This document shows, piece by piece, positions 15,383-63,529 of a stretch of 64,000 bases of DNA. A program made the translations under genes and the position numbers. Within the stretch, counting starts at the first letter, position 1; each line of letters opens with the position of its first letter. Origin of the DNA: Macrostomum lignano (Eukaryota); the NCBI GenBank assembly GCA_002269645.1, contig NIVC01002786.1, positions 1-64,000 on the forward strand, in the 5' to 3' direction. The notes under the pieces were generated by a model. It saw nothing but the letters and a program-made list of their open reading frames with translations, was not told the DNA's origin and did not search any database.

Positions 15383-18300
15383 TCACTGATCAACATTTCC
15401 GGAAGTGTTGCTGGAACTGCCAACCGGATCTCTGCTGCTCATCGCCTGCTGGAGAATTCTGTAGCTCTCAGACTCGGTCGAGAATGGATTTCCCTGCAAG
15501 GGAGTGGCAATTGCTGGCATTTGATTGTACACGGATAACTAGTACTACTGCAGCTAGATGATCGAGACCCTCAGCAGCATATTTGCCTGTAAGCTACTAC
15601 CAGCTCAGTAGTAATGAAACATTTTCAAGCATTTTTATAAAGACACGGCTTATTCATTGGCTCTACCAACATCGCGTCTTTTTACACAGAATCTCTACCC
15701 CAGGTGCCCCACCGCCCATGCAATTTTATTGCCTTCTTCAATGCTCCAGCCTAAAGCTGCAATGTACATTTCAGTGAACTAGCTAATGTACATTATGGCT
15801 GAACGCGAATTAGCAAGTTTGTTTACGCCTGCAAGCTAGCGCCCTGCAGATAAAGACCTGTCTAGAGGCTCTCAGGAGAGCGCAAGGGCGCGCTTGTCGC
15901 ACGATCATGAGCGCCCCTCCGTCTGCTCCTTACGATGGCCTCAACGCCTTCCTCAACATTCCTCCGCTGGACATCTTTGTCCGCAGGGAAGCGGCTAAGA
16001 CTGCCCGCCGTCTAGCTGACGCTGGCATTCGAATCCAGCCCCATAGGGCCATGGCTAAGCGCAAGCTTCTGCCCCACGCTGACCTCTGCCTCAAGGACTT
16101 GAGAGACAGCGGCGGGCTCCACGTCCTATCTGACGGCGAACCCCGCACTCTCAACCTCTTTCAGCGCTACAAGGTCACCATCCCCTCTAGGGATGCTGCC
16201 AATGACCACTGGAATTTCCAGGAGGTCCATTGCTACACGGACGGATCCATCAAAGACGGTCGCGCCGGCTTTGGGGTCTGCATCATCATCAACGGCCGCG
16301 TAATTGCCACGCATGCCCAGCACACTGGTAGACTCTCCACAGTCTTCCAGAACGAAGTCCTTGCCATCAGCTCTTGCGCTGCAGAGCTAAACGCCAAGGT
16401 TACGAGAGGAAAGACTATTGTCATCCACTCCGACAGCCAAGCGGCCTTACAGGCCCTTTGCCACACCACAACGAACTCCCGGACAGTCGCCGACTGCGCC
16501 CGGCAGCTCAACCTCCTGGCCAGAAGCAATACTGTCAGGCTGAAGTGGATCCCAGGGCACGCAGGGTTTCCGGGGAACGAGCTGGCAGACACCCTCGCCA
16601 AGAGGGGCGGCTCTGGCTCTTTTTTCGGCCCTGCCCCCCTGGTCCCTATGCCCTTGACAGTCATCAATCGTCAGATCGACGACTGGGCTGACTCCCTCCA
16701 CAGGGACAGATGGGCGGGCACCCAAAACTGCCGGCAATCTCGTGCCGCGGTTCCTTGCCCGTCTCACAGGCTCAGAAACATCCTTCTGAACCAGAATCGG
16801 AAGGATATTCGAGCCCTTGTCATGACCCTTACCGGCCATGGCTACCTCGCCAGGCACTGCTTCCTCCGAGGCGACCTCGAGAGCGAAATTTGCCCCTTTT
16901 GCGAGTGCGACAATGAAGATGCTCAGCACTTTGTCTGTCACTGCCCTTTCTTTAACAGAGACCGGCTACGCTACCTCGGGCCGAACCCGTCCATTGACGA
17001 GGTTTGCCAGCCCGACAGCATCCCACGGCTCATCCAGTTCCTTCGGGCGACTAGACGAGCCAGTTTCTTCCCAACGGAAGATCACGCTGCAGGACGGACC
17101 GGCGGACCACCCTGACCGGCCCCACGCCTCTGCCTGTCTGCGGGCCTTCAGGGGCTAGCGGAATGGGCGACCCTCGCCTCCCCGCTGTGTCTACGGACCA
17201 CCCTGCAGCTAAGTCAAGTCAAGTCAAAGTCAAGTAAGGCCCCACCGCCCATGCAATTTTATTGCCTTCTTCAATGCTCCAGCCTAAAGCTGCAATGTAC
17301 ATTTCAGTGAACTAGCTAATGTACATTATGGCTGAACGCGAATTAGCAAGTTTGTTTACGCCTGCAAGCTTGGGTTTTAAACTTATCAAAGTCATTTCAG
17401 CTGGCTTTATTTTTACAAAATAGCTTATGTATTCTTCATAGCTACTGAACTAAAAGTAGACAGAGAACTGAGAGTCGGTGAAAGTCGGCTTGAAACTTAA
17501 AATCAAATTCGAATAAAATTTCAAAAAAATGTCAGGATAAGATCATAGTGGGGGACTTTACAGCTTCCGTCTCACCTGTAGCAGAAGCTTCATCAGTCCC
17601 GTGCCGTTCACCTTCTGCTTGCTCATGTAGGCCAGCTGGTAACTGACGGCCGTCTTCCACTGCAGCACGCCTTTGTCCGTGATCAGGTTTCCTGCAAGCA
17701 AGATAAAGATTGAGCAGGGTTTTTGTGTCAGCGCGTGGCATGATGATGAGATATACCAACTTATCCTGAATTTTGACACCGAATGCCATATATTGGCACT
17801 CAGTTAATTCCAAGCTGTTTAATTTAGATTTCATATTTTCTGTAATTCCATATTTCATTTGAAGCGTTAATAGTTTTATACTTATTGTCTTACACTCGAT
17901 TTTCTTAGAAATGAGAGCTGGAAGCCAATATAGAACGTTTAAAGAAGTATATAACCTTTATGGCAGAAGGCAAATGGCAGAGAAAGGATGAGGACGCGGT
18001 TCTCAAGCCTTAGATAAACGCGTCCAAAGTTTTTTGCCATAGACACCAAAAGAACAGGCAAAGATTATTGGTATAGATCATTGTATACTTAATCTACAGA
18101 TGTCAGAAGCCCCATCACATAAGCGTCTATGGCCAAGCCTCACTAAAACGAAGCCTGAGAACTCGAAACGAGGCCAATTAACCAGTTGACAGGACCAGTT
18201 GACATCTAATTTGGTCCAACAAGCATCAATTTGGTCCAAACACTCGTAAGCCATTCGGGAAATTCTTGCCTTCTCGCAACCGTCTGCAGGTTGTTGCGTA

Positions 18301-53924: not shown

Positions 53925-54235
53925 AAGATGCTTGCTATCTGGGGGGATGCTTGCTATCAGGGGGGATGCTTGCTATCAGGGGCCGGGATGCTTGCTATCA
54001 GGGGATGCTTGCTATCTGGGGGATGCTTGCTGTCTGGGGGATGCTTGCTGTCTGGGGGATGCTTGCTATCAGGGGATGCTTGCTATCTGGGGGATGCTTG
54101 CTGTCTGGGGGATGCTTGCTGTCTGGGGGATGCTTGTTATCAGGGGATGCTTGCTATCTGGGGGATGCTATCTGGGGGGATGCTTGCTATCTGGGGGATG
54201 CTTGTTATCTGGGGGATGCTATCTGGGGGGATGCT
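53925..54235. repeat. ~17-bp satellite (GGGGATGCTTGCTATCT)n, left part
   Basis: Continues in the same orientation at 58626 after the inserted element. Confidence 0.93.
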
Positions 54236-55031
54236 ACTACGTAATGCGCAGATAGAGCAGGGTTTTCAGGCAGATTTGACGCAAAAAACGCAAATTATAC
54301 TACTATCTGAAAATGAAGTAAGTAGTATACAAAAACGCTATCCTAAGCGTGATGTGGCAATATGTAGTTGTAATAATCCATGTGCTCATATTAATACCAT
54401 GTACATTAATCCCTATCTATCTCAAATTGTACATTAATTCCATGTACATTAATCCCTATCCCAAATTGTCTATCCCCAATTCTATATGTACATGTGCATT
54501 AATCTACAGTGTCATCCCCAGCGCGCGCGCACCAACATTACATGTACAATGCTACATGTACACAGAGGCGAGAATTACTAATCTCATCTACTACCAAATG
54601 AGTCAACTAACCGTGTAGCGTACATCATGTATAAGTATTTACAATGAAGATATATTTACATTTAATCAGTAGCATATTACAGGAAATAATTTATGTACAG
54701 CATTACCAGCAAATAGAATATACAGAAAATTTTACATTGTTTTTCATTAATTTTCTTTTCATAAATAATTTTAAACAAGTTTGACACGCAAAATATGTAC
54801 AATAGATTTTTACATTGGCAATTTCGCTGCATACAATACAAAAATGCTTTATGTACATTTGTATAGTAGTATGTAACTCTTCATTAATTTAACATGCAAA
54901 ATATGTACAACAATAAATAGATTTTACTCAGTCAAATTTAACAAGATATTTATTAAGCAAGGGCCACATTATTTATAACCATAAGGCCTGCTGCAGGCCC
55001 CGTACACGCGCTTCGTCAGGACGCGCTGAAA
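54236..55031 (+). repeat. Left terminal inverted repeat (796 bp)
   Basis: Reverse complement of 57830-58625 with no differences seen by eye. The identical 89-aa spurious ORFs at 54349(+) and 58243(-) corroborate this. Confidence 0.95.
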
Positions 55032-55056
55032 GGCTCCCAAAGTGAAAGCTTCGACT

Positions 55057-57892
55057 ATGCCATACGTGTTCTACGATACGGAAACATACACGGACGAGGA
55101 GAAGCAGCATCACGTGCACCTGGTGACTGCCGTCACGTGCTGCGAGACCTGCTCCGGCCGGGCGTTTCCGCGCGAGACTTGCCGCCTCTGCAATGGCCTG
55201 CATAGCGCCGCCAATTGTCTGACTGGCCGCGATCTGGGGGAGGAATTCTCCAATTGCGTCAGCCACTCAGACTGCGCCTGCCAAATGGCCGATTTTGTGG
55301 CTGTGGGCCCGGCCTCGCTGAATGCGTTTTTCACCTGGCTGAGCACAGCTTTCCGAGGCGGCGCCATTGTTGTAGCGCACAATGCATCAGGCTACGATTC
55401 GTTCCTACTGCTTGGCGCTCTACTCAACGGCCTGGCCAAGAAGCGGCCACAAGTACTGTTCCAGGGCAGCCGGCTAATGAGCATGACGGTGGATAAATTG
55501 GTATTTAAAGATTCATTAAATTTTATACCAATCCCGCTTGCGCAATTCCCCAAAGCTCTGGGGCTCGCTAACACAAAGCTGGCCAAGGGGACCTTTCCCC
55601 ACGAGTTTAACAAGCCGGCTAATTGGAACTACGTTGGCCCCTACCCGGCTATTGAATATTATGGCGGCAAAGCGAACAAGGACTATGACTCAATCTGTGC
55701 TTGGCTAGCCTCGCGACAGGGCGAGTTGTTCAACTTTAATCGGGAATATCTCGATTATTGTTTGAGCGACACAGTCCTGCTTCGCGAGGGCTGCATCAAG
55801 TACAGGGCAATAATTGGTGAAATTTGCGACGGCCTGGAACCGTTTGTTCAGGCCAATACGATTGCCAGTTTGGCAATGGCCGTTTTCACCACCCGGTTTA
55901 TGGAGCCCAACTCGGTCGGCGTGATTGCCCGGCAGGCCGACCAGCAGTCGTTCAAGGCGCGCAAGTGGCTGGCCTATTTGAATGCCACCGAATTTGGCGG
56001 GCGGCTGCGAACCTGCGACTCGACTGGCGGCGAGGCTGTCATTCTCGGCCGCAAGGTGGACGGCTTCGATGAGGCGAGCAACACTGTTTTGCAGTTTCAT
56101 GGCTGTTTCTACCATGGCTGCGAGCAGTGTATGCCCGATCAGGATGTCGTCCACCCGCTCAAACGGCAGCCTCTGAGCCATATTCGCCACGAGACTGAGT
56201 GGTTCACTCGCGAGTTGGAGCGGCACAATTACAGTGTTCGAGTCATTTGGGAGCATGAGTACGACACTGTATTGGCGTCGCAGGCCGACTTTATCGCCGC
56301 AACTGCACATCTGCGCGCTCCGCTCAAGATGGAGGATGCGCTCTACGGTGGCCGCGTAGAGTGCTTTATCCCGCATGCTGTGGCCAGCGAGACTGAGACT
56401 CTCAAATATCGGGATGTGGTGAGTAGCGATACTACTAATATAGTAGAATATTTTGCAAAAAATACAGTTTATGAAAAAAAAATAATGCTTTATTTCAACT
56501 GGCAGGTCTCTCTGTACCCGACGGTGCAGTCGAAAGACCCATACCCGATTGGCCACCCGGTGCAACATCCGACGCCGCAAGTGCTCGATTCTGACGCGCT
56601 GGCTAGCTACTTTGGCATTGCCAAGGTGACAGTGCTGCCGCCGTCAGATTTGCACATTCCGCTGCTGCCCTACAGGGTGCAAAAGAAGCTCTTTTTTGGG
56701 CTTTGCCGCACCTGTATGGAGCAGCAGTGCGGCGAGTGCTGCGACCACTCTGACCAGCAGCGGGCACTGACTGGTACCTGGGCAACGCCGGAGCTGCGGA
56801 AGGCCTTCCAGTTGGGCTACCGGCTGCAGGCGGTGCACGCGCTGGCCTACTGGACAGAGAAGCGGACCGGTCTGTTCAGTGACTATGTCAGCACCTTTCT
56901 CAAGCTGAAGGCTGAGTCGAGCGGTTCCCCCGGCATGTCGGATGAAGACAAGGCCGCCTACATTGCCGATTTTTACGCCAAGGAGGGCGTCACGCTGGAC
57001 AAGGTCGAGCCCAACCCAGGACTTCGCTTTGTAGCGAAAATCTTTTTGAATTCGTAAGTATTCATAAATTTTTGTATTTTAAATGATTTTCTTCTTCTAC
57101 TAACAGTAGCACTTCTTTTCACAACACACAGGCTCTGGGGCAAATTTTGTCAGCGTGATGACCTGACATCGACAGAAATTGTATCCAGCTACGAGGACTG
57201 GCTCGCCCGGCTGACCGACCCCAACCTCAAAGTCAAGGCCTGCGAACCGATTGGCAGCGAGTTTATGCTGCTAGAGTACCGGCACCGCTATTTTAATCAG
57301 CGGCCGTTCCGGTACTCCAATGTGCCAATCGGGGTCTTTACGACCACTCAGGCCCGGCTGCGCCTGTATGAGGCATTGGAGGGGCTCGGCGAACGGGCCA
57401 TTTACTGCGACACTGACTCGTAAGTATTGCATTGGGAAAATTATTTTAGAATTGATTACATGTAAATAGTTAGCAATTATCTCGTTTTCTCTCCCACACA
57501 GGGTCGTTTACCGGCATTCCGAGGGCCAATGGGAGCCGCCCCATGGCACGAGCCTCGGAATGTGGACCGATGAGGTGCCCGCAGGCAGCCGGATGACCGA
57601 CTTTGTAAGTGGGGGGCCCAAACTCTACACTTACATTGTCGAGGATGCGGCCGGTGCCCGGAGTCAGGTCCTGAAGTGCAAGGGCATCCGCCTGACTCCG
57701 GAGATTCGGGAGCGCAGCGATGAATTGCGCAGTGCCCTACTACACGGCGGCTCCCTGCAGCTGCCGCAGCTTCAGTTTAGGCGCGACAAGGCGTCTTGTA
57801 CCATACACACAATCAATATGGACAAGACGTTTCAGCGCGTCCTGACGAAGCGCGTGTACGGGGCCTGCAGCAGGCCTTATGGTTATAAATAA
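55057..57892 (+). CDS. polB: Protein-primed family B DNA polymerase (Polinton pPolB), 4 exons, 862 aa
   Basis: Exons 55057-56418, 56506-57053, 57132-57419 and 57502-57892 sum to 2589 nt. ExoI FYDTET, ExoII AHNASGYD, ExoIII YCLSD, Vsr-like insert VDG...FHGCFYHGC, and the Polinton-typical LCRTC...GTW segment are present. After splicing, motifs A (RDVVSLYP), B (KIFLNSLWGKF) and C (YCDTDSVVY) and the GGPKLY motif are restored. Confidence 0.93.
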
Positions 57893-58625
57893 TGTGGCCC
57901 TTGCTTAATAAATATCTTGTTAAATTTGACTGAGTAAAATCTATTTATTGTTGTACATATTTTGCATGTTAAATTAATGAAGAGTTACATACTACTATAC
58001 AAATGTACATAAAGCATTTTTGTATTGTATGCAGCGAAATTGCCAATGTAAAAATCTATTGTACATATTTTGCGTGTCAAACTTGTTTAAAATTATTTAT
58101 GAAAAGAAAATTAATGAAAAACAATGTAAAATTTTCTGTATATTCTATTTGCTGGTAATGCTGTACATAAATTATTTCCTGTAATATGCTACTGATTAAA
58201 TGTAAATATATCTTCATTGTAAATACTTATACATGATGTACGCTACACGGTTAGTTGACTCATTTGGTAGTAGATGAGATTAGTAATTCTCGCCTCTGTG
58301 TACATGTAGCATTGTACATGTAATGTTGGTGCGCGCGCGCTGGGGATGACACTGTAGATTAATGCACATGTACATATAGAATTGGGGATAGACAATTTGG
58401 GATAGGGATTAATGTACATGGAATTAATGTACAATTTGAGATAGATAGGGATTAATGTACATGGTATTAATATGAGCACATGGATTATTACAACTACATA
58501 TTGCCACATCACGCTTAGGATAGCGTTTTTGTATACTACTTACTTCATTTTCAGATAGTAGTATAATTTGCGTTTTTTGCGTCAAATCTGCCTGAAAACC
58601 CTGCTCTATCTGCGCATTACGTAGT
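57830..58625 (-). repeat. Right terminal inverted repeat (796 bp), overlapping the last 63 nt of the polB CDS
   Basis: Complementarity to the left TIR extends into the codons for FQRVLTKRVYGACSRPYGYK*. Confidence 0.95.
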
Positions 58626-59350
58626 GATGCTTGCTATCTGGGGGATGCTTGCTATCTGGGGGATGCTTGCTATCTGGGGGATGCTATCTGGGGGGATGCT
58701 AGCTATCTGGGGGATGCTTGCTATCAGGGGGGATGCTTGCTATCAGGGGATGCTTGCTATCTGGGGGATGCTTGCTGTCTGGGGGATGCTTGCTGTCTGG
58801 GGGATGCTTGTTATCAGGGGATGCTTGCTATCTGGGGGATGCTATCTGGGGGGATGCTTGCTATCTGGGGGATGCTTGTTATCAGGGGATGATATGCGGT
58901 TGCTTACTCTTGGAGGGCGGTGCTTGCTATCTGGGAGATACTTGTTATCTGCGGGATGCTTGCTATCTGGGGAATGCTTGCTATCTGGGGGGGGGGTGCT
59001 TGTTATCAGGGATGCTTGCTATCTGGGGAATGCTTGCTATCTTGGGAATGCTTGCTATCAGGGGATGCTTGCTATCAGGGGATGCTTGCTATCTGGGGGA
59101 TGCTTGCTATCTGGGGAATGCTTGCTATCTGGGGGGGGGGGGTGCTTGTTATCAGGGATGCTTGCTATCTGGGGAATGCTTGCTATCTTGGGAATGCTTG
59201 CTATCAGGGGATGCTTGCTATCTGGGGGGGTGCTTGTTATCAGGGGATGATATGCGGTTGCTTACTCTTGGAGGGCGGTGCTTGCTATCTGGGAGATACT
59301 TGTTATCTGCGGCATGCTTGCTATCAGCTGGGGGATGCTTGCTGTCTTGG
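58626..59350. repeat. ~17-bp satellite (GGGGATGCTTGCTATCT)n, right part
   Basis: Same unit and orientation as 53925-54235. Confidence 0.93.
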
Positions 59351-62038: not shown

Positions 62039-63370
62039 TTAAAGCGGTTTCAGCCGTTCCAACTCCAATTCCAAGGCAATCCTTTGCTCGGTGACCTCCT
62101 TGAGCTCGACAGCCAGTTCATTGTTGAGCCTAACCAGGGTGTGATTCTTCTCTTTCTGAGCCTTCACCGCCGCTAGCAGGCGTTCCCGATTGGGCGGCTG
62201 GCCGGAGGCAACAGCGGCGGCGTCGGCAGCAGCGGCGGCAGCAGCAGCGGAGGACGCCAGCTGATAGCTGGCAGCTCGTGGCGGCACAGTCGGAGCGGAC
62301 GGGTCGGCGTGCTGTTGCAGGAGATGCTGCTGCTGATGCGCTGTCGGTTTCCTAGGGGTCGGATGAAGCACGCCAACACCGGTTGGAGGAATTCCGCCAA
62401 AGACTGACGGCTCCGGCGGCGGCTGCTGCTGGTGAATTGGCGGTGGCGGCGGCATCGTCGGAGGCGGCGAAGCCTCGTCCTGGTCGGACAGCGGCTCGTA
62501 GCCGGCAGCAACAGGGGGCAGCCTGTCGGGTATCGGCACATTGTTGCGCCTCAGCACGACCAGGTGCATCGCGGTGGAGAACTCGGCCAGGTTGAGCTGG
62601 CCGTCCATGTCGCGATCGGACAGGGCCCAGATGCGGGACAGCTCGGGCGGGGGCAGGCGGGACTTCTCAAAGAACTGCTTGGCCACTGGGCCGGTGATGC
62701 GGCCGGTGAGGCTGGGGCACAGGGTGAGGAATTGGTTGGCGTAGTACTCGCGCTGCTCGCGGGTCATGGCCAGCGGATCCGAGCTGTCCTCTTCATCCTC
62801 GAAGCCGCCAGCGCCGCCGCCGTTGCCCTCAACGTACTTGTGCCGGTCGTCGGGCGCGTCGCCAGCCTGGCTGTCGGAGTCGTCCGAATCCGACGTCGAA
62901 TCGTCATCATCGACATCGTCGCCGTCGTCGTTTTTGGATCCCCCGACGCCGCCTTCTGCCGAGGACGACGAGGCGGCCCGACGATGACGTCGGCGAGAGG
63001 CGCCGCGGCCGCCAGTGGATGCTGCGGCAGCGGTCGAGCCGGCCAAAGGCTCGCGGCCAGCGGCCGAGCCGCTGATGAGGCCAGTGTCCGAGTCGACGTC
63101 CGAGAAGTGGGCCCAGCCGCCGCCGCTGCCGCGCCCAGACTGGTCAGTGCCGCCGCCGCCGGCCCCGGGATCGGCGTCTTCGTCCGAGTGGCGCCGGACT
63201 CCGCCGCCGGCCTCGGCAGCGTCGACAACTCTAGGTGCTTCGTCGGCGTCGGCGCTAGAGGAGCCCGGCTTCAGTTTGGGCTTCGGTTTTGGCTTCGGCT
63301 GCGGCGGCGGTAGCGCCGAGCGGTCCAGACTGGCCGCCCTGGCGTCTCCAGGCGTGGCGGCGCCGGCGAC
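62039..63370 (-). CDS. REPS1: Terminal exon of a REPS1/REPS2-like EH-domain endocytic adaptor
   Basis: Acceptor cctaag|GTC at 63370, in frame. EH domain MTREQREYYANQF...AKQFFEKSRLP..ELSRIWALSDRDMDGQLNLAEF..AMHLV. C-terminal RalBP1-binding coiled coil KEKNHTLVRLNNEL..ELKEVTEQRIALELELERLKPL*. The 5' exons lie beyond the window. Confidence 0.87.
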   Translation of the reverse strand, partial: VAGAATPGDARAASLDRSALPPPQPKPKPKPKLKPGSSSADADEAPRVVDAAEAGGGVRRHSDEDADPGAGGGGTDQSGRGSGGGWAHFSDVDSDTGLISGSAAGREPLAGSTAAAASTGGRGASRRRHRRAASSSSAEGGVGGSKNDDGDDVDDDDSTSDSDDSDSQAGDAPDDRHKYVEGNGGGAGGFEDEEDSSDPLAMTREQREYYANQFLTLCPSLTGRITGPVAKQFFEKSRLPPPELSRIWALSDRDMDGQLNLAEFSTAMHLVVLRRNNVPIPDRLPPVAAGYEPLSDQDEASPPPTMPPPPPIHQQQPPPEPSVFGGIPPTGVGVLHPTPRKPTAHQQQHLLQQHADPSAPTVPPRAASYQLASSAAAAAAAADAAAVASGQPPNRERLLAAVKAQKEKNHTLVRLNNELAVELKEVTEQRIALELELERLKPL

Positions 63371-63529
63371 CTTAGGGGAGGGGCGTTTTTAAATGTGAGT
63401 TAAATAATAGTTACAATTTGCGCGCTTTTCTACTGAGCGGGACGAAGGCAGTAGAGGATAAAAAAATTTAATGTATCTGTAGTCTAAATGAGTCAGAATG
63501 ACAGTTTCTTCTCAAGCAATATCTGATTT

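What the first reader, a model, noticed from the sequence alone, without database searches (positions are those of the whole stretch)
54236..58625. A 4.4-kb polymerase-only mini-Polinton with an intact, spliced pPolB
Seen: two 796-bp TIRs with no visible differences, a 6-bp TSD, termini with a 3-nt reiteration (ACTAC), and one gene with every exonuclease and polymerase catalytic motif intact and CpG-rich. Established: Polintons/Mavericks are typically 15-20 kb, make 6-bp TSDs, and encode integrase, packaging ATPase, protease and capsid proteins as well as pPolB; their genes are generally intronless. Inference: this is a young element reduced to TIRs plus replicase that must borrow integrase (and probably terminal protein) from a helper. 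It may be a satellite-like class that keeps only replication in cis. A correct TSD shows this exact short form, or a close precursor, was integrated by an integrase.
Basis: partly seen in the sequence, partly recalled or inferred. Interest (0 to 1): 0.92.

Follow-up and report, generated by a model that had tools for sequence, protein, structure and literature searches.

The report
Broken piece of a two-part Polinton
The short element is a folded-back, truncated piece of something more unusual: a virus-like jumping gene in a flatworm whose genome appears to be split into two separately moving halves, one carrying the DNA-copying enzyme and the other the integration and capsid genes.

Summary
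The anatomy is real: two identical 796-bp inverted arms, a 6-bp TSD and three GT-AG introns. The pPolB is not intact. It starts at about residue 447 of about 1,170-1,250 and lacks the N-terminal region inferred to hold terminal protein and vOTU. The left 'TIR' is an inverted copy of the right end, including the last 20 codons. The same insertion appears on two other contigs as a 5.96-kb palindrome, so the 4.4-kb form is one fold-back deletion product (or an assembly collapse), not a class.

Its parents are the surprise. In this genome (Macrostomum lignano by UniRef match), two related Polinton families (A, B) each exist as two separate TSD-flanked elements of about 10 kb sharing only about 31 terminal bases. 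Segment R carries spliced pPolB, with PC4 and dUTPase in some copies. Segment S carries integrase, capsids, protease and ATPase. None of 101 pPolB loci lies within 25 kb of a cognate capsid or integrase, and none of 88 paired-terminus elements holds both. pPolB dN/dS is 0.03-0.10. Gene-less 9-kb palindromes share the termini. Best reading: a bipartite Polinton with copy-back defectives. I found no such report. Complementation and virions are untested.

The parts
54230..54235 (+). left target-site duplication GATGCT
54236..58625 (+). 4,390-bp copy-back/deletion derivative of the replicase (R) segment of family A
54236..54266 (+). common terminal sequence (about 31 bp) shared by R, S and palindromic elements; identical to the left end of S element C175:235327
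54236..55031 (-). left arm: inverted copy of the right 796 bp (ordinary R-type TIR plus 3' region)
54969..55031 (-). inverted duplicate of the last 20 pPolB codons plus stop, marking the arm as a copy-back
55030..55031 (+). 2-bp microhomology (AA) at the deletion junction; the parent continues upstream through a 14-bp inverted repeat that is the fold-back centre on C4430 and C3085
55030..56418 (+). 5'-truncated pPolB exon (Exo I-III; first in-frame ATG at 55057, just before Exo I)
55915..56304 (+). VSR-endonuclease-like insertion in pPolB (P0001 residues 742-871)
   Evidence: Z 9.2, rmsd 4.8, 118 aligned to 1cw0; coordinates mapped from P0001
56419..56505 (+). intron, 87 nt, GT-AG, inside Pol motif A
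56506..57053 (+). pPolB exon
57054..57131 (+). intron, 78 nt, GT-AG, inside Pol motif B; same position in family B
57132..57419 (+). pPolB exon
57420..57501 (+). intron, 82 nt, GT-AG, just after DTD; spliced joint seen in one probable RNA run; same position in family B
57502..57892 (+). last pPolB exon and stop
57830..58625 (+). right arm (original right end of segment R)
58595..58625 (-). right common terminal sequence
58626..58631 (+). right target-site duplication GATGCT
53927..59343 (.). 18-bp host satellite array interrupted by the element

Best explanation
The window element is a defective copy-back derivative of the replicase segment of a bipartite Polinton. SHOWN: families A and B each exist as two kinds of TSD-flanked elements of about 10 kb. 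R carries spliced pPolB, with a PC4-like ORF and dUTPase in some copies. S carries PW- and PZ-like ORFs (labels recalled from position), RVE integrase, minor capsid, DJR major capsid, protease and ATPase. R and S of a family share only about 31 terminal bases. INFERRED: pPolB with its fused terminal protein, made from R, replicates any linear DNA ending in that 31-bp origin. Integrase from S inserts any such DNA with a 6-bp TSD. S capsid proteins may package each roughly 10-kb molecule. During strand-displacement replication a nascent strand can fold back at a short inverted repeat and copy itself, giving a palindrome with two good ends. At this locus that happened at a 14-bp repeat just 5' of Exo I. 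The predicted 7.27-kb palindrome lost terminal protein and vOTU, was integrated, and now appears with different one-arm deletions (5.96 kb on two contigs, 4.39 kb here). This copy cannot prime its own replication and is a passenger. I put the odds that the exact 4.39-kb form exists in vivo, rather than being an assembly collapse, at about 0.6.
For: Copy-back: arm contains the CDS end. Flanks on C4430 and C3085 are 99.7-99.9% identical on the left and 98% on the right, with a 2.3-kb arm and an inverted 61-bp loop. The natural hairpin at that point folds. Gene-less palindromes L032 (9.4 kb, 99.7%) and L040 (8.8 kb, 99.5%) have 71-75-nt central loops and their own TSDs. Two segments: S elements L039 and L161 read almost end to end have no pPolB hit at E<1, and none of 29 R or palindrome loci has an S gene. 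0 of 101 A/B pPolB loci lie within 25 kb of 62 cognate MCP or 52 cognate integrase loci, while 52 of 52 integrases lie within 7 kb of own-type MCP. Of 88 paired-terminus elements, 23 have pPolB, 18 have MCP plus integrase, 47 have neither and 0 have both. Control: 8 of 33 other-family pPolB loci are linked to MCP or integrase, from truncated lists. 31 of 32 elements have exact 6-bp TSDs (28 of 29 distinct sites). R-S identity is 0.77 over bases 1-31 (R-R 0.74, S-S 0.79) and 0.16 over bases 32-45. A and B are both split, with terminus type matching across segments. pPolB dN/dS is 0.03-0.10 in 20 of 20 non-allelic-locus comparisons. MCP fold is DJR. In metagenome contigs L148 and L152 the same gene block and pPolB converge on one molecule, so the split falls between them.
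Against: Complementation, extrachromosomal DNA and virions were not observed. Genome searches score only the best candidates, so a rare or unassembled 20-kb monopartite copy is not excluded. Only 4 A-R, 1 B-R, 1 A-S and 1 B-S interiors were read; the rest were typed by search hits. 56 of 65 B pPolB loci had no B terminus within 9 kb under my single pattern. 2 of 4 A-R interiors lack the PC4-like ORF. 9 of 21 copies have frameshift indels and 4 of 21 have stops. One B pPolB lies 3.8 kb from another family's MCP on C4072 and was not inspected. No listed contig from 4 runs bridges 55031/55032 (tables were cut), and the window's private base at 55062 was seen in none of them. Only 2 of 16 long metagenome contigs showed pPolB, so that control is thin.
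Confidence: 0.78

Rival explanations
1. R, S and the palindromes are all non-autonomous deletion families of a monopartite master Polinton that is missing from this assembly or lives as an exogenous virus.
For: Searches give lower bounds. pPolB-less Polintons that stay mobile beside complete ones are reported in butterflies (10.1101/2025.02.07.637071, section 13 read). Monopartite relatives exist in metagenomes.
Against: No element with both modules among 88 paired termini. The same split occurs in two families that differ by about 35% in pPolB and about 15% in MCP. R and S have different TIR interiors, each conserved within its class. pPolB on R is under purifying selection.
Confidence: 0.12
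2. One reading: the 4.4-kb form is itself a mobile polymerase-only satellite class with a working replicase.
For: Perfect arms and TSD. An in-frame ATG sits just before Exo I, where the phi29-like core starts (model residue 455), so a core enzyme could in principle be made.
Against: Single locus, and the same site has another structure on two contigs. The N-terminal region is gone. No promoter or transcript specific to this junction was shown.
Confidence: 0.04
3. R is a plasmid-like replicon and S an unrelated capsid element; each is mobilised by the ordinary monopartite Polintons of this genome, and the shared ends are convergent or borrowed.
For: The genome holds many other Polintons (73 DJR hits; intronless pPolB frames up to 1,478 aa). 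The A-S inner TIR resembles the B-R inner TIR, showing end swapping.
Against: The one other-family element inspected appears to end in AGTAGT-type repeats, not ACTAC (one end only). S has its own integrase. R and S share the same terminal sub-variants.
Confidence: 0.06

Closest known systems
Polintons/Mavericks (eupolintoviruses, adintoviruses), pPolB2 group with VSR insertion
   Same: 6-bp TSD, TIRs, pPolB, RVE integrase with chromodomain-like tail, ATPase, protease, DJR MCP and minor capsid are all present across R plus S. A VSR-like insertion is present, as in mollusc and marine-nematode pPolB2 (10.1101/2023.08.22.554363, passages). The best BFVD fold hit is an adintovirus polymerase.
   Different: Genes lie on two molecules of about 10 kb instead of one of 13-25 kb. 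pPolB has spliceosomal introns, whereas intact vertebrate Mavericks have none (PMC8097293, passages). The vertebrate modules put ATPase and PZ with pPolB; here they go with S. Termini are ACTAC-type.
Bidnaviridae (Bombyx mori bidensovirus)
   Same: Two segments with different ITRs sharing a common terminal sequence (53 nt), pPolB on one segment, separately encapsidated (PMC4938981, passages). Its pPolB came from Polintons (10.1101/2024.03.18.585575, passages).
   Different: Bidnaviruses are ssDNA with an unrelated capsid protein and, as recalled, have no integrase. This system keeps the Polinton DJR capsid, ATPase, protease and integrase, and integrates with a TSD.
Yeast cytoplasmic linear plasmids (pGKL1/pGKL2) and mitochondrial linear plasmids
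   Same: pPolB replicons derived by loss of the morphogenetic module.
   Different: They do not integrate by an RVE integrase and have no capsid partner (recalled). R is nuclear, spliced and TSD-flanked.
Copy-back (snap-back) defective viral genomes; palindromes formed at short inverted repeats
   Same: Large palindrome centred on a short inverted repeat, keeps both origins, loses genes, and is resolved by one-sided deletions (mechanism recalled, not from a call).
   Different: Here they are endogenous, integrated with TSDs and amplified as families.
pPolB-less polintons of Pieris mannii
   Same: Polinton elements lacking pPolB that stayed mobile.
   Different: There pPolB loss goes with LINE or LTR cargo, and complete near-identical helpers exist. 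No reciprocal pPolB-only partner or shared short terminus is described in the section read.

Membership tests
Polinton/Maverick (system R+S) | 6-bp TSD and TIRs | tested here: met
   31 of 32 elements
Polinton/Maverick (system R+S) | protein-primed PolB | tested here: met
   PF03175; phi29 best structural match, Z 15.9, rmsd 3.4, 399 aligned
Polinton/Maverick (system R+S) | RVE integrase | tested here: met
   PF00665 E 2e-9 on L161; weak hit on L039; on S only
Polinton/Maverick (system R+S) | DJR major capsid protein | tested here: met
   model pLDDT 84; PBCV-1 Vp54 and related hits E 1e-11; homologs named F54H12.2-like
Polinton/Maverick (system R+S) | packaging ATPase, maturation protease, minor capsid | tested here: inconclusive
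   No significant Pfam or PDB sequence hit. Assigned from a Walker A motif, recalled protease motifs, conserved order in metagenome Polinton contigs and a tblastx match to the L038 minor-capsid-position ORF.
Polinton/Maverick (canonical) | pPolB and integrase on one 13-25 kb element | tested here: not met
   0 of 101 loci, 0 of 88 paired-terminus elements
Polinton/Maverick (canonical) | intronless genes | tested here: not met
   pPolB introns in A and B, one seen spliced; S genes have long open frames
Polinton pPolB (window copy) | N-terminal terminal-protein and vOTU domains | tested here: not met
   Region absent from the window. Its identity in parents is inferred and invariant C232/H315; fold searches did not test that part.
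Bidnaviridae | segments sharing a common terminal sequence | tested here: met
Bidnaviridae | non-DJR capsid protein | tested here: not met
   MCP is DJR
Bidnaviridae | ssDNA virions, segments packaged separately | not testable with these tools
   needs particles
Mobile 4.4-kb mini-element class | same internal junction at several sites with different TSDs | tested here: not met
   one locus among 39 of 345 candidates scored

The most novel reading that the evidence does not exclude
A true bipartite, integrating dsDNA virus with a double-jelly-roll capsid. Replicase and integrase/morphogenesis segments of about 10 kb are replicated from a shared 31-bp origin and packaged separately into size-limited capsids. 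Unit-length (about 9 kb) palindromic defectives ride along. The split arose by the same fold-back end repair that made the window element and predates the A/B divergence. Introns accumulated only on the replicase segment.
Probability: 0.4. Interest if true: 0.95.

Novelty: new variant of a known kind. Interest (0 to 1): 0.85.

Why it matters
If true, this is a segmented member of the Polinton group, for which my searches found no precedent. It would give a natural case of a dsDNA virus or transposon splitting into two mutually dependent halves, with integrated copies recording the intermediates (copy-backs, palindromes, end swaps). It narrows the Polinton replication origin and integrase attachment site to about 31 bp, which can be assayed. 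It is in a laboratory flatworm, where particles, free linear DNA and expression can be looked for; Maverick virions had not been observed as of PMC8097293 (abstract start). Pipelines that demand five or more Polinton genes around pPolB would discard both halves, so the arrangement may be overlooked elsewhere. It also offers a parallel to how bipartite bidnaviruses took pPolB from Polintons. The 4.4-kb piece alone is minor.

Tried and rejected
Pfam Pox_A32 and Peptidase_C5 searches of the genome found nothing, although one search shows an A32 hit in L038, so these negatives are uninformative. PF21738 found other families' MCPs but not the S-type MCP. The idea that the 15-18 kb elements are full-length Polintons was rejected for the 2 read (C694, C1945): the extra length is nested LINE, mariner and RNase H fragments; C1486, C200, C2286 and C221 were not read but have no MCP or integrase hit. 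The idea that all pPolB-less elements are S was rejected: L032 and L040 are gene-less palindromes. Viral contigs held no relative of the MCP. Metagenome hits were only 27-39% identical, too distant to test whether relatives are split. No run was on record as RNA. Introns 1 and 2 had no listed joint (17 joints not shown), and no listed piece bridged the deletion junction; neither shows absence. The treekit tree timed out and was replaced by FastTree on 1,177 columns of alignment A2. The Atlas gave no usable hit for the 283-aa S ORF. Earlier-findings look-ups were empty. The centre of the C1313 inverted duplication was not in the stretch fetched. The review PMC11426020 was not held.
Full report
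OBSERVATION. The arms 54236-55031 and 57830-58625 are 796 nt and fully complementary. GATGCT flanks both ends, inside an 18-bp satellite. The pPolB has GT-AG introns at 56419-56505, 57054-57131 and 57420-57501, and its four coding blocks have no stops. Pfam PF03175 hits the first two blocks. Intron ends were GT..AG in 19 of 21, 19 of 21 and 19 of 19 covered copies. One run guessed to be RNA shows the joint 57419-57502, absent from the other three runs laid. This supports splicing in the family, not in this copy.

THE GENE IS TRUNCATED AND THE LEFT END IS A COPY-BACK. The right arm starts inside the last exon, and the left arm holds the last 20 codons inverted. In the genome (G000, 764 Mb) only the window matches over the full length. 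31 of 119 rows start exactly at query position 795, where the left arm ends (39 of 345 candidates scored). Upstream of that point, 15 of 22 copies continue the frame for 194 or more codons. UniRef models from Macrostomum lignano are 96-100% identical to the first exon and 1,158-1,250 aa long; the window frame begins at residue 447 of P0001. The phi29-like core of the model starts at residue 455. Polinton pPolBs have the order terminal protein, vOTU, exonuclease, palm (10.1101/2024.03.18.585575, passages). C232 and H315 are invariant in 64 aligned sequences. I infer that the window copy lacks the primer domain and its protease; the fold searches did not test that region.

ONE LOCUS, TWO STRUCTURES. 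C4430 and C3085 carry the element in the same flanks (99.7-99.9% left, 98% right). There it is 5.96 kb, with a 2.3-kb left arm and an inverted 61-bp piece at the centre. That piece lies at a natural 14-bp inverted repeat just upstream of the junction, which folds as a hairpin. The simplest history is a fold-back there, giving a palindrome of about 7.27 kb, then different one-arm deletions. The window junction has 2 bp of microhomology. The window differs from those contigs by two synonymous bases. One of them (55062) was not seen in any of four runs, and no listed contig bridged the junction, though the tables were cut. So the 4.39-kb form may be a real allele (about 0.6) or an assembly collapse. 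Either way it is not a class.

THE PARENT LACKS INTEGRASE AND CAPSID. Full pPolB elements with these termini are mostly 9.5-10.8 kb. Four interiors were read. C157 has dUTPase, a PC4-like ORF and small ORFs. C694 is the same plus nested LINE and mariner sequences. C1485 and C1945 lack PC4. A second family, B (about 64% aa; 65 loci against 36 for A, fragments and allelic duplicates included), has ACTACTAAGGG termini, the same intron positions and a PC4-like ORF. A and B form one long-branch clade, support 1.0, inside a group with unnamed proteins and Saccostrea pPolBs (FastTree, 64 sequences). A VSR-like insertion links it to the mollusc and marine-nematode pPolB2 group. Against the window copy, 20 other copies give dN/dS 0.03-0.10; 9 of 21 have frameshift indels and 4 of 21 have stops.

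THE MISSING HALF. A 10.2-kb element with the same first 19 bases (L039, C3051) encodes, in order, PW- and PZ-like ORFs, integrase, minor capsid, a small ORF, major capsid, protease and ATPase, several frameshifted in this copy, and no pPolB. The PW and PZ labels and the protease are assigned from recalled motifs and position. The MCP model is a double jelly roll. A B-terminus element (L161, C181) has the same order at 53-88% identity for most genes, plus a Fic-domain ORF. Genome-wide I counted 33 A-type and 29 B-type MCP loci and 27 and 25 integrase loci, leaving out rows at 42% identity or less as other families and merging split rows. None of 101 pPolB loci lies within 25 kb of any of them, while 52 of 52 integrases lie within 7 kb of own-type MCP. 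Of 65 A and 23 B paired-terminus elements, 17+6 hold pPolB, 16+2 hold MCP and integrase, 32+15 hold neither and none holds both (one search listed 100 of 123 matches; C200 holds only a 3' pPolB part and fell under 'neither'). As a control, 8 of 33 other-family pPolB loci, many with long intronless frames, are linked to a listed MCP or integrase. Two A/B pPolB loci lie near another family's MCP: C211, outside its own termini, and C4072, not inspected. Of 32 elements that I chose for having paired termini, 31 have exact 6-bp TSDs (28 of 29 distinct sites, two in simple repeats); C996 has inverted flanks. R and S are as alike over bases 1-31 as members of one class (0.77 against 0.74 and 0.79) and unrelated over bases 32-45 (0.16), and they share the same terminal sub-variants (13 R, 9 S). 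In two metagenome contigs the block integrase-MCP-protease-ATPase converges on pPolB in one molecule (2 of 16 contigs of 6.5 kb or more). In R and S the 3' ends of pPolB and ATPase each abut a terminus, so the split falls at that convergence point.

PALINDROMIC PASSENGERS. L032 (A termini, 9.4 kb) and L040 (B termini, 8.8 kb) are 99.5-99.7% palindromes with 71-75-nt loops and their own TSDs. L032 keeps a dUTPase remnant, so it derives from the left end of R. Related copies at 93-99% identity occur on about 19 contigs, many with unequal arms (19 of 243 candidates scored). Fold-back products are therefore amplified and integrated as such, which makes the inferred 7.3-kb precursor of the window element an ordinary product of this system. 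R, S and palindromes cluster at 9-10.5 kb, which hints at a packaging limit (inference).

MECHANISM. Shown: two gene-complementary element classes per family, shared 31-bp ends, TSDs, purifying selection on pPolB, and one spliced junction. Inferred: protein-primed replication of all classes by R's pPolB, integration of all by S's integrase, packaging by S's capsid, and fold-back end repair as the source of the defectives and possibly of the split itself. Confidence 0.78 for a two-segment Polinton with this element as a defective; 0.4 that it is also a separately encapsidated virus.

COMPARISON AND NOVELTY. It works like a Polinton with the genome plan of a bidnavirus (common terminal sequence; PMC4938981, passages). 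It fails two canonical Polinton features (one molecule; intronless genes) and is not a bidnavirus (DJR capsid, integrase). Ten literature searches, including polinton with bipartite/segmented, multipartite, segmented genome, and Macrostomum, listed no title or abstract start describing a bipartite Polinton or Polintons of this worm. I read passages of PMC8097293, 10.1101/2023.08.22.554363, 10.64898/2026.10.13.758929, 10.1101/2024.03.18.585575, PMC4938981, 10.1101/697771, PMC8363768 and PMC12166617, and passages plus section 13 of 10.1101/2025.02.07.637071; the rest I saw only as listings. No supplements were read. Subscription papers, the 2024 polinton review, Repbase and Dfam were out of reach and could hold a prior description. 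Introns in polinton-like elements are known from dinoflagellate introners, and pPolB-less mobile polintons from butterflies.

VERDICT. The 4.4-kb mini-Polinton as described is not supported; the bipartite system it points to is well supported by genome evidence and untested at the bench. New variant of a known kind; interest 0.85.

Noticed in passing
G000 termini, L041-L079 and window 54236-54266: The terminal 31 bp vary in short blocks (positions 9-11, 12-16, 17-23, 24-27) that recombine freely. The two ends of one element are usually identical, and the same blocks occur in R and S. Unexplained; suggests frequent end exchange.
   Followed up: partly
L041-L059 versus L060, L076-L079: The inner TIR of A-type S elements resembles the inner TIR of B-type R elements, suggesting a TIR swap between segments or families.
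   Followed up: no
G000:C1313:243594-257956: 14.4-kb element with two MCP genes in opposite orientation, probably a copy-back of segment S; centre not located.
   Followed up: partly
G000:C996:304975-315186 (L043, L044): S element whose flanks are inverted copies of each other instead of a TSD.
   Followed up: no
G000:C1485:44228-62496 (L004, L031): An R element with its own TSD is nested inside a family-A palindromic element.
   Followed up: partly
L039:675-882 and L031:3603-3799: About 200 bp shared (84%) between the region 3' of the S ATPase and the interior of one R subtype.
   Followed up: no
L161:8822-9625: Fic-domain ORF (PF02661, E 7e-14) as cargo on a B-type S element.
   Followed up: no
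L038 (G000:C67:357500-367400) and hits: The genome holds several further, AT-rich or intronless Polinton families; L038 has a PLA2-like region before its integrase and an F5/8-type domain ORF.
   Followed up: partly
P0121-P0123: MCP relatives at 72-74% identity on short ENA and Logan contigs; possible related systems in other hosts.
   Followed up: no
window 62039-63388 (-) and 15814-17115 (+): An EH-domain host gene exon and an RNase H fragment of a retroelement; the rest of the window is rich in minisatellites.
   Followed up: no
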